NCBI RefSeq assembly: GCF_016903815.1
Contig: NZ_CP069973.1
Direction: 5' to 3' (one strand)
Source of the DNA: Escherichia coli
GTDB lineage: Bacteria; Pseudomonadota; Gammaproteobacteria; Enterobacterales; Enterobacteriaceae
Length of the DNA stretch: 64,000 nt
Both the position numbers and the translations under genes were made by a program. The notes under the pieces are model-generated. The model was not told the origin of the DNA, did not search any database, and was given only the letters and a program-made list of their open reading frames with translations. Below are positions 56,440 to 56,613 of the stretch, piece by piece. Position 1 is the first letter of the stretch; each line of letters begins with the position of its first letter.

Positions 56440-56613
56440 ATGGCAAACCATCGAGGCGGTTCCGGCAATTTTGCAGAAGACCGCGAAAGAGCATCAGAAG
56501 CAGGTAAAAAAGGTGGACAGCACAGCGGGGGTAATTTCAAAAATGACCCGCAGCGCGCATCTGAAGCAGGTAAAAAAGGTGGCAAGAGCAGTCACGGCAA
56601 AAGCGACAACTAG
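56440..56613 (+). CDS. ymdF: KGG-repeat stress-induced protein YmdF
   Basis: MANHRGGSGNFAEDRERASEAGKKGGQHSGGNFKNDPQRASEAGKKGG…; internal tandem repeat. Confidence 0.8.
   Translation: MANHRGGSGNFAEDRERASEAGKKGGQHSGGNFKNDPQRASEAGKKGGKSSHGKSDN

What the first reader, a model, noticed from the sequence alone, without database searches (positions are those of the whole stretch)
56440..56613. Internal tandem duplication in ymdF (KGG repeat protein)
The protein contains two near-identical units (…RASEAGKKGGQHSGGNF… and …RASEAGKKGGKSSHGKS…), mirrored at the nucleotide level by repeats of GCATCAGAAGCAGGTAAAAAAGGTGG. This is typical of small general-stress proteins and is a site where repeat number could vary by slippage.
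Basis: seen in the sequence. Interest (0 to 1): 0.15.

Follow-up and report, generated by a model that had tools for sequence, protein, structure and literature searches.

The report
Two-unit KGG repeat in ymdF
This is the known small E. coli stress gene ymdF, which holds two copies of a 22-codon "KGG" repeat; 350 of 5,426 complete E. coli genomes, including the O157:H7 lineage, have lost exactly one copy, so the finding is real but ordinary.

Summary
Window 56440-56613 (+) is ymdF (57 aa), lying between wrbA and rutG. It has two 22-codon KGG units (Pfam PF10685, 67 bits). They share a 10-residue core, RASEAGKKGG, and a 26-nt core that matches at 25 of 26 bases, 20 of them perfect.

The repeat is old. 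It is present in Salmonella, Klebsiella, Citrobacter and Enterobacter orthologues. In the paralogue yciG, unit 1 matches unit 1 and unit 2 matches unit 2. Only the perfect 20-nt core is recent. It is seen in E. coli and two unnamed Escherichia isolates. Other genera share 9 nt or fewer between units.

Of 5,426 complete E. coli genomes, 5,416 carry the locus. Of these, 350 (6.5%) carry an exact in-frame 66-bp deletion between the cores, giving a 35-aa one-unit protein. None carries a three-unit allele.

299 of the 350 have the O157:H7 haplotype. The other 51 sit on at least five local haplotypes, each nearest to a two-unit haplotype, with SNPs differing within 1-45 nt of the junction. The deletion is therefore recurrent.

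This is a known gene and a known repeat family behaving as textbook direct-repeat misalignment predicts. Interest is low.

The parts
56440..56613 (+). ymdF coding sequence (57 aa plus stop)
   Evidence: ORF. RefSeq annotation of the same locus as ymdF, protein WP_001273658.1. Pfam KGG.
56429..56433 (+). Shine-Dalgarno GGAGG, 6 nt upstream of the ATG. It supports the 56440 start rather than the in-frame ATG at 56410.
   Evidence: Sequence. GGAGGT is invariant across the 7 sequences aligned, which cover five genera (Escherichia, Salmonella, Citrobacter, Enterobacter, Klebsiella).
56464..56529 (+). KGG unit 1 (residues 9-30, GNFAEDRERASEAGKKGGQHSG)
56530..56595 (+). KGG unit 2 (residues 31-52, GNFKNDPQRASEAGKKGGKSSH)
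56491..56516 (+). Core copy 1, GCATCAGAAGCAGGTAAAAAAGGTGG. The perfect 20-nt part is 56497-56516.
56557..56582 (+). Core copy 2, GCATCTGAAGCAGGTAAAAAAGGTGG. The perfect 20-nt part is 56563-56582.
56497..56562 (+). The 66 bp missing in one-unit alleles. The register is ambiguous over the 20-nt core: any 66-nt frame from 56497-56562 to 56517-56582 gives the same product.
   Evidence: Alignment of the window with O157:H7 F7349; translation to 35 aa.
56409..56414 (+). Candidate -10 hexamer TATGAT, inside a block (ATGCAATATGAT) conserved across genera. This is inference only; the promoter was not mapped.
   Evidence: Alignment. The sigma-70 consensus scan did not call it.
56668..56688 (.). GC-rich hairpin with T-runs on both strands. 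It is a terminator-like site shared by the convergent genes ymdF and rutG.

Best explanation
This is ymdF, a small, very hydrophilic protein built from two 22-residue KGG repeats. Published work places it in the RpoS regulon and describes its Salmonella orthologue as intrinsically disordered. The two-unit design is old and conserved. In E. coli the two units have also become identical over 20 nt at the DNA level. That short direct repeat, spaced 66 bp apart, is a substrate for misalignment, either replication slippage or unequal exchange between sister chromosomes. Misalignment removes exactly one unit in frame. This has happened repeatedly: the whole O157:H7 haplotype group and scattered strains in other backgrounds make a 35-aa one-unit protein. 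What is shown: the repeat, its family, its age, the deletion alleles, their frequency and their recurrence. What is inferred: the misalignment mechanism, and any effect on protein function.
For: Repeat anatomy and significance. Family: Pfam KGG at 67 bits in two stretches; the one-unit allele still scores 39 bits in one stretch. Age: YmdF unit 1 matches YciG unit 1 at 19/22 aa and unit 2 matches unit 2 at 19/22, against 15/22 between YmdF's own units. Orthologues in Salmonella, Klebsiella, Citrobacter and Enterobacter all have two units and 94-96% identity to the query over the aligned region. Recent perfect core: the longest exact inter-unit repeat is 20 nt in E. coli but 8-9 nt in those four genera. 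E. albertii and two divergent genomes labelled E. coli have one or two synonymous differences in the unit-2 core. Polymorphism: exact 66-bp deletion in O157:H7. A junction query kept at E<=1e-32 finds 350 of 5,426 genomes. A 360-nt O157 query finds the same number, 350, of which 299 are >=99% identical and 51 are below 99%. Recurrence: in 1,299 aligned flanking columns, deletion alleles fall next to two-unit alleles. B379 is 1 SNP from T28R, the DETEC-P829 group is 3 from Z1323CEC0015, and 19AR0253 is 6 from UPEC132. They differ from one another at 56583, 56598, 56604, 56618 and 56626, which lie 1-45 nt from the junction, and they occur with both the short and the long ymdF-rutG spacer. Protein character: 21% Gly, GRAVY -1.71, 5% hydrophobic residues. 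The AlphaFold model has low confidence (pLDDT 65.5, pTM 0.27) with two short helices, one per unit. No related solved structure was found. Biology from papers: RpoS dependence, and disorder shown for the Salmonella orthologues (PMC7161692); an E. coli ymdF deletion mutant forms poor biofilms and is more easily killed (PMC9262955).
Against: The mechanism was not observed directly; slippage and unequal recombination give the same product. The absence of expansions in 5,416 genomes is somewhat unexpected if misalignment were symmetrical, so there may be a bias or selection. Recurrence rests on local haplotypes of about 1.3 kb, not on a genome-wide tree. NCBIfam gave no hit, although RefSeq names the protein 'con-10 family general stress protein'.
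Confidence: 0.9

Rival explanations
1. The one-unit allele arose once and spread between E. coli lineages by homologous recombination, so the site is not a recurrent deletion hot spot.
For: E. coli recombines frequently. The O157 and DETEC-P829 deletion alleles share the first SNPs downstream of the junction (56632, 56643, 56647).
Against: Other deletion alleles differ at sites 1 nt (56583), 16 nt (56598), 22 nt (56604) and 36-44 nt (56618, 56626) from the junction. In each case they match the neighbouring two-unit haplotype. A transferred tract would have to be shorter than about 90 nt each time.
Confidence: 0.07
2. The one-unit alleles are assembly artefacts caused by collapse of a repeat.
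For: Repeats can collapse in assemblies.
Against: The perfect repeat is only 20 nt. All 350 are RefSeq assemblies at 'complete genome' level. 299 independent O157-haplotype assemblies agree. The junction is always the same clean in-frame product, and no collapsed or expanded oddities were seen.
Confidence: 0.01
3. The locus is a contingency or phase-variable locus, in which repeat number changes rapidly and reversibly to switch or tune expression.
For: It is an in-frame repeat in a stress gene, and unit number differs among family members. The Mixta theicola homologue has 4 units, two of them 62/66 nt identical. Pseudomonas homologues carry additional KGG units.
Against: There are only two units, 68% identical overall. 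The two-unit protein is identical (WP_001273658.1) in every two-unit genome fetched. No gain was seen in 5,416 genomes. Once one unit is lost the repeat is gone, so the change cannot revert by the same route. Changes are in frame and do not switch the gene off.
Confidence: 0.02

Closest known systems
YciG of E. coli (paralogue, b1259)
   Same: It has two KGG units in the same order, and corresponding units match at 19/22 aa. It scores 64.8 bits against Pfam KGG. It is RpoS-regulated (PMC7161692).
   Different: Its units share only an 11-nt exact repeat at the DNA level. Unit 1 has AGRKGG rather than AGKKGG. It has a different C-terminal tail and sits at a different locus, in the yciGFE cluster next to trpA.
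Pfam PF10685 KGG family ('stress-induced bacterial acidophilic repeat motif'); from my own knowledge this includes Bacillus subtilis GsiB and the Neurospora con-10 type
   Same: The 22-residue repeat matches the full profile (positions 1-22 of 22) twice.
   Different: Unit number differs across the family. I saw 1 unit (O157 allele), 2 (most Enterobacteriaceae), 3 (P0041), 4 (Mixta theicola) and more than two in Pseudomonas homologues.
PA2146 of Pseudomonas aeruginosa and the Klebsiella ymdF paralogues (PMC9262955)
   Same: The paper reports them as functionally interchangeable with E. coli ymdF for biofilm architecture and tobramycin tolerance.
   Different: They are different genes in other species. 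The paper states that YmdF lacks the Walker-like motif of YciG, yet the E. coli tail GKSSHGKS (residues 48-55) formally fits GxxxxGK[ST] by eye. In a protein predicted to be mostly disordered this is probably meaningless.
Deletion between short direct repeats by slipped misalignment, largely RecA-independent and dependent on repeat length and spacing (own knowledge of the E. coli literature)
   Same: A 20-nt perfect repeat spaced 66 bp apart, with a deletion product that keeps one repeat copy and removes exactly the interval.
   Different: The mechanism is inferred from natural alleles here. No rate was measured, and no reciprocal duplication was seen.

Membership tests
Pfam KGG (PF10685) | Profile match above the curated gathering score | tested here: met
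   67 bits against 20.4, E=1.6e-18, two stretches, profile positions 1-22 of 22. The one-unit allele scores 39 bits.
ymdF orthologue group (E. coli b4518) | Same sequence and same position between wrbA and rutG | tested here: met
   The same 57-aa protein (WP_001273658.1) is annotated as ymdF between wrbA and rutG in all two-unit genomes fetched, including K-12.
Hydrophilins (criteria recalled from my own knowledge: Gly above 6% and mean hydrophilicity above 1) | Glycine content and hydrophilicity | tested here: met
   Gly 21.1%, GRAVY -1.71. The criteria are recalled, not checked against a paper.
Intrinsically disordered small stress proteins | No stable fold | tested here: inconclusive
   AlphaFold pLDDT 65.5 and pTM 0.27, with only two short helices. 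No solved relative. PMC7161692 cites experimental disorder for the Salmonella orthologues.
RpoS regulon | RpoS-dependent transcription | not testable with these tools
   Reported in PMC7161692. Here there is only a conserved upstream block with a TATGAT candidate -10. The sigma-70 scan did not call it.
NCBIfam / 'con-10 family general stress protein' (RefSeq name) | Match to an NCBIfam model | tested here: not met
   No family at E<=1 in NCBIfam release 20.0. The RefSeq name must rest on other evidence.
Phase-variable contingency locus | Many near-identical units, reversible gain and loss, on/off or graded switching | tested here: not met
   Two units at 68% identity. TRF finds no array. Zero gains in 5,416 genomes. 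Loss removes the repeat.
P-loop NTPase (Walker A) | GxxxxGK[ST] within a beta-loop-helix fold | tested here: inconclusive
   The pattern GKSSHGKS is present at residues 48-55 by eye, but no fold is predicted and there is no Pfam P-loop hit. It is absent in the Salmonella and Klebsiella orthologues.

The most novel reading that the evidence does not exclude
The recurrent loss of one KGG unit is not neutral. The one-unit YmdF, fixed in the O157:H7 haplotype group together with a 1-nt deletion in the conserved upstream block, may alter biofilm formation or stress and antibiotic tolerance, and the parallel losses in other lineages may reflect selection. A side idea is that the perfect 20-nt core arose by short-tract conversion between the two units. 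Three changes all raise inter-unit identity: CGT to AAA in unit 1, and GGA to GGT and GGG/GGC to GGT in unit 2.
Probability: 0.15. Interest if true: 0.35.

Novelty: already known. Interest (0 to 1): 0.15.

Why it matters
It matters little on its own. ymdF and its KGG repeats are annotated and described, and the 35-aa allele already has a RefSeq protein accession (WP_001273654.1). The useful by-products are modest. It is a clean natural example of recurrent direct-repeat deletion in a coding sequence. It gives a simple 66-bp size marker that separates the O157:H7 haplotype and a few other strains from most E. coli. It also offers a ready-made natural variant for asking how many KGG units the protein needs, given the reported biofilm and tolerance phenotype of the ymdF deletion mutant (PMC9262955).

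Tried and rejected
- Tandem Repeats Finder at minimum score 30 found nothing. Two copies at about 70% identity are below its reach.
- The NCBIfam scan gave no hit, and the search of solved structures gave none.
- My first attempt to count deletion alleles by query coverage failed, because the tool joins the two half-matches in two-unit genomes. I replaced it with a strict E-value cut-off that only a one-piece junction match can pass.
- One record with only 60% coverage of the junction query (H100) turned out to be a normal two-unit allele.
- Proteins of 63-91 aa in the homologue list were checked as possible three-unit alleles. Of those retrieved, all but P0041 are frameshifted tails or upstream start calls. 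P0041 is a more distant three-unit homologue.
- The Rfam scan of 55900-56900 gave only a sub-threshold sroD match in the ymdF 3' region (25.8 bits against 50), which I treat as noise.
- The sigma-70 consensus scan found no convincing ymdF promoter.
- A full-text search for ymdF together with O157 found no paper that discusses the short allele.
- The first haplotype script mis-anchored FCI56 and included O157 prophage sequence. It was redone on the homologous columns only.

Full report
**What is there**

Window 56440-56613 (+) is a 57-codon ORF preceded by GGAGG. It lies between wrbA (55471-56067, minus strand) and rutG (56696-58138, minus strand). RefSeq annotates the same locus as ymdF in thousands of genomes, including K-12. 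The window is not K-12: over the 381 nt tested (56340-56720) it is 100% identical to strain 7/2. K-12-type genomes carry an extra 175 nt or so between ymdF and rutG.

**The repeat**

The repeat finder reports a 62-nt direct repeat with a period of 66 nt, that is 22 codons, at 73% identity. Shuffles of the window expect 0.00 matches. The longest perfect stretch is 20 nt, and none of 2,000 codon shuffles of the gene reached that length. Over whole units the identity is only 45/66 nt and 15/22 aa, and Tandem Repeats Finder calls nothing. The observation therefore holds, but "near-identical" applies only to the RASEAGKKGG core.

**What it is**

Pfam KGG (PF10685) matches twice, at 67 bits against a cut-off of 20.4. 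The protein is 21% glycine with a GRAVY of -1.71. It has no solved relative. Its AlphaFold model has low confidence, with one short helix per unit.

Published work describes YmdF, YciG and STM1513 as RpoS-regulated KGG proteins, and describes the Salmonella proteins as disordered (PMC7161692). It also reports that an E. coli ymdF deletion mutant forms poor biofilms and is more easily killed, with cross-complementation by P. aeruginosa PA2146 (PMC9262955).

**Age of the duplication**

YmdF unit 1 is closer to YciG unit 1 (19/22 aa) than to YmdF unit 2 (15/22). YmdF unit 2 is likewise closer to YciG unit 2 (19/22). Orthologues in Salmonella, Klebsiella, Citrobacter and Enterobacter keep two units at 94-96% identity to the query over the aligned region. 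The duplication therefore predates both the ymdF/yciG split and these genera. It is the family's architecture, not a recent event.

**The perfect core is recent**

In those four genera the two units share at most 8-9 nt exactly, and unit 1 reads AGRKGG (CGT or CGA). A scan of species-representative genomes for the 20-mer found two copies at 66-nt spacing in only two genomes, both labelled Escherichia sp. E. albertii and two divergent genomes labelled E. coli already have AAA in unit 1 but differ at one or two synonymous sites in unit 2. Three changes, all of which raise inter-unit identity, produced the perfect repeat. This may reflect short-tract conversion, but that is inference.

**Copy-number test**

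- O157:H7 strain F7349 lacks exactly 66 bp between the cores. It keeps GCATCA from copy 1 and GGC from copy 2, and it encodes MANHRGGSGNFAEDRERASEAGKKGGKSSHGKSDN, 35 aa, still a KGG protein.
- A 100-nt junction query restricted to E<=1e-32, which only a one-piece match can reach, found 350 of 5,426 complete genomes.
- A synthetic three-unit junction under the same cut-off found none.
- A 360-nt O157 query again returned 350 genomes: 299 at >=99% identity (the O157:H7 haplotype) and 51 below that.

**Recurrence**

I fetched nine one-unit and eight two-unit loci, added the window's own two-unit allele, and compared the 18 sequences over 1,299 homologous flanking columns. One-unit alleles sit beside two-unit alleles:

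- B379 is 1 SNP from T28R.
- DETEC-P829, CPww7 and XPFI_3_2 are 3 SNPs from Z1323CEC0015.
- 19AR0253 is 6 SNPs from UPEC132.
- O157 and GF43 are on their own branches.

The one-unit alleles differ from each other at 56583, 56598, 56604, 56618 and 56626, which lie 1-45 nt from the junction. They occur with both the short and the long ymdF-rutG spacer. At least five independent deletions is the simplest reading. A single origin with spread by recombination would need very short tracts each time.

**Mechanism**

A 20-nt perfect direct repeat spaced 66 bp apart, and a product that keeps one copy and loses exactly the interval, fit misalignment at direct repeats. That could be replication slippage or unequal sister exchange. 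This step is inferred, not shown.

Gains of a unit do occur elsewhere in the family. A Mixta theicola homologue has four units, two of them 62/66 nt identical. No gain was seen in E. coli.

This is not a contingency locus. It has two diverged units, the loss is irreversible, and the change is in frame.

**Other signals**

A GC-rich hairpin at 56668-56688 has T-runs on both strands and serves the convergent genes ymdF and rutG. A conserved upstream block, ATGCAATATGAT, contains a candidate -10. The promoter was not mapped.

**Verdict**

The gene and its repeat are already known, and the 35-aa allele already has a RefSeq accession. A full-text search found no paper linking ymdF and O157 in this respect. 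Interest is low.

Noticed in passing
window 56401-56410; L001 1560-1568: O157:H7 has a 1-nt deletion (TCTATGCAAT to TCTAGCAAT) inside the upstream block conserved across genera, just 5' of the candidate -10 TATGAT. It accompanies the one-unit allele and might affect ymdF expression.
   Followed up: partly
window 56324-56337; L001 about 1485-1497: A small hairpin, GCGGGtctgCCCGC, in the wrbA-ymdF spacer is replaced in O157:H7 by a cluster of six substitutions (56329-56335). Purpose unknown.
   Followed up: no
L001 1-610: In O157:H7 F7349, homology to the window begins only around window 56015, inside wrbA. A phage antirepressor (Ant) gene lies upstream, so a prophage appears to be inserted in wrbA next to ymdF.
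   Followed up: partly
window about 56689; L018 1175-1430: K-12-type genomes carry an extra sequence of about 175 nt between ymdF and rutG that the window lacks. One-unit alleles occur with both spacer forms. The nature of the insert was not examined.
   Followed up: no
L004 748-1445: Strain CUWW10 has an IS1A element inserted between wrbA and ymdF, about 90 nt upstream of the ymdF start.
   Followed up: no
window 56619-56693 (+): Sub-threshold Rfam match to sroD covering the whole model (25.8 bits against a gathering score of 50; E=0.014 for a 1-kb search), in the ymdF 3' region including the terminator hairpin. Probably chance.
   Followed up: no
window 56581-56604 (residues 48-55): The E. 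coli YmdF tail GKSSHGKS formally fits the Walker A pattern GxxxxGK[ST], although PMC9262955 states that YmdF lacks the motif that YciG has. It is absent in the Salmonella and Klebsiella orthologues and is probably meaningless in a protein predicted to be mostly disordered.
   Followed up: partly
proteins P0012, P0031, P0061, P0068, P0088: Several database variants of E. coli-type YmdF have frameshifted, extended C-terminal tails that start within or just after the second KGG core. Whether they are real alleles or sequencing errors was not checked.
   Followed up: no
protein P0089: A 60-aa protein labelled E. coli has a YciG-like N-terminal half (AGRKGG, DRQKASD) and a YmdF-like tail (GKSRHGKSDK). 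It could be a chimera or a third paralogue.
   Followed up: no
L011 1174-2100: In strain 19AR0253, which carries a one-unit ymdF, the neighbouring rutG is annotated as a frameshifted pseudogene.
   Followed up: no
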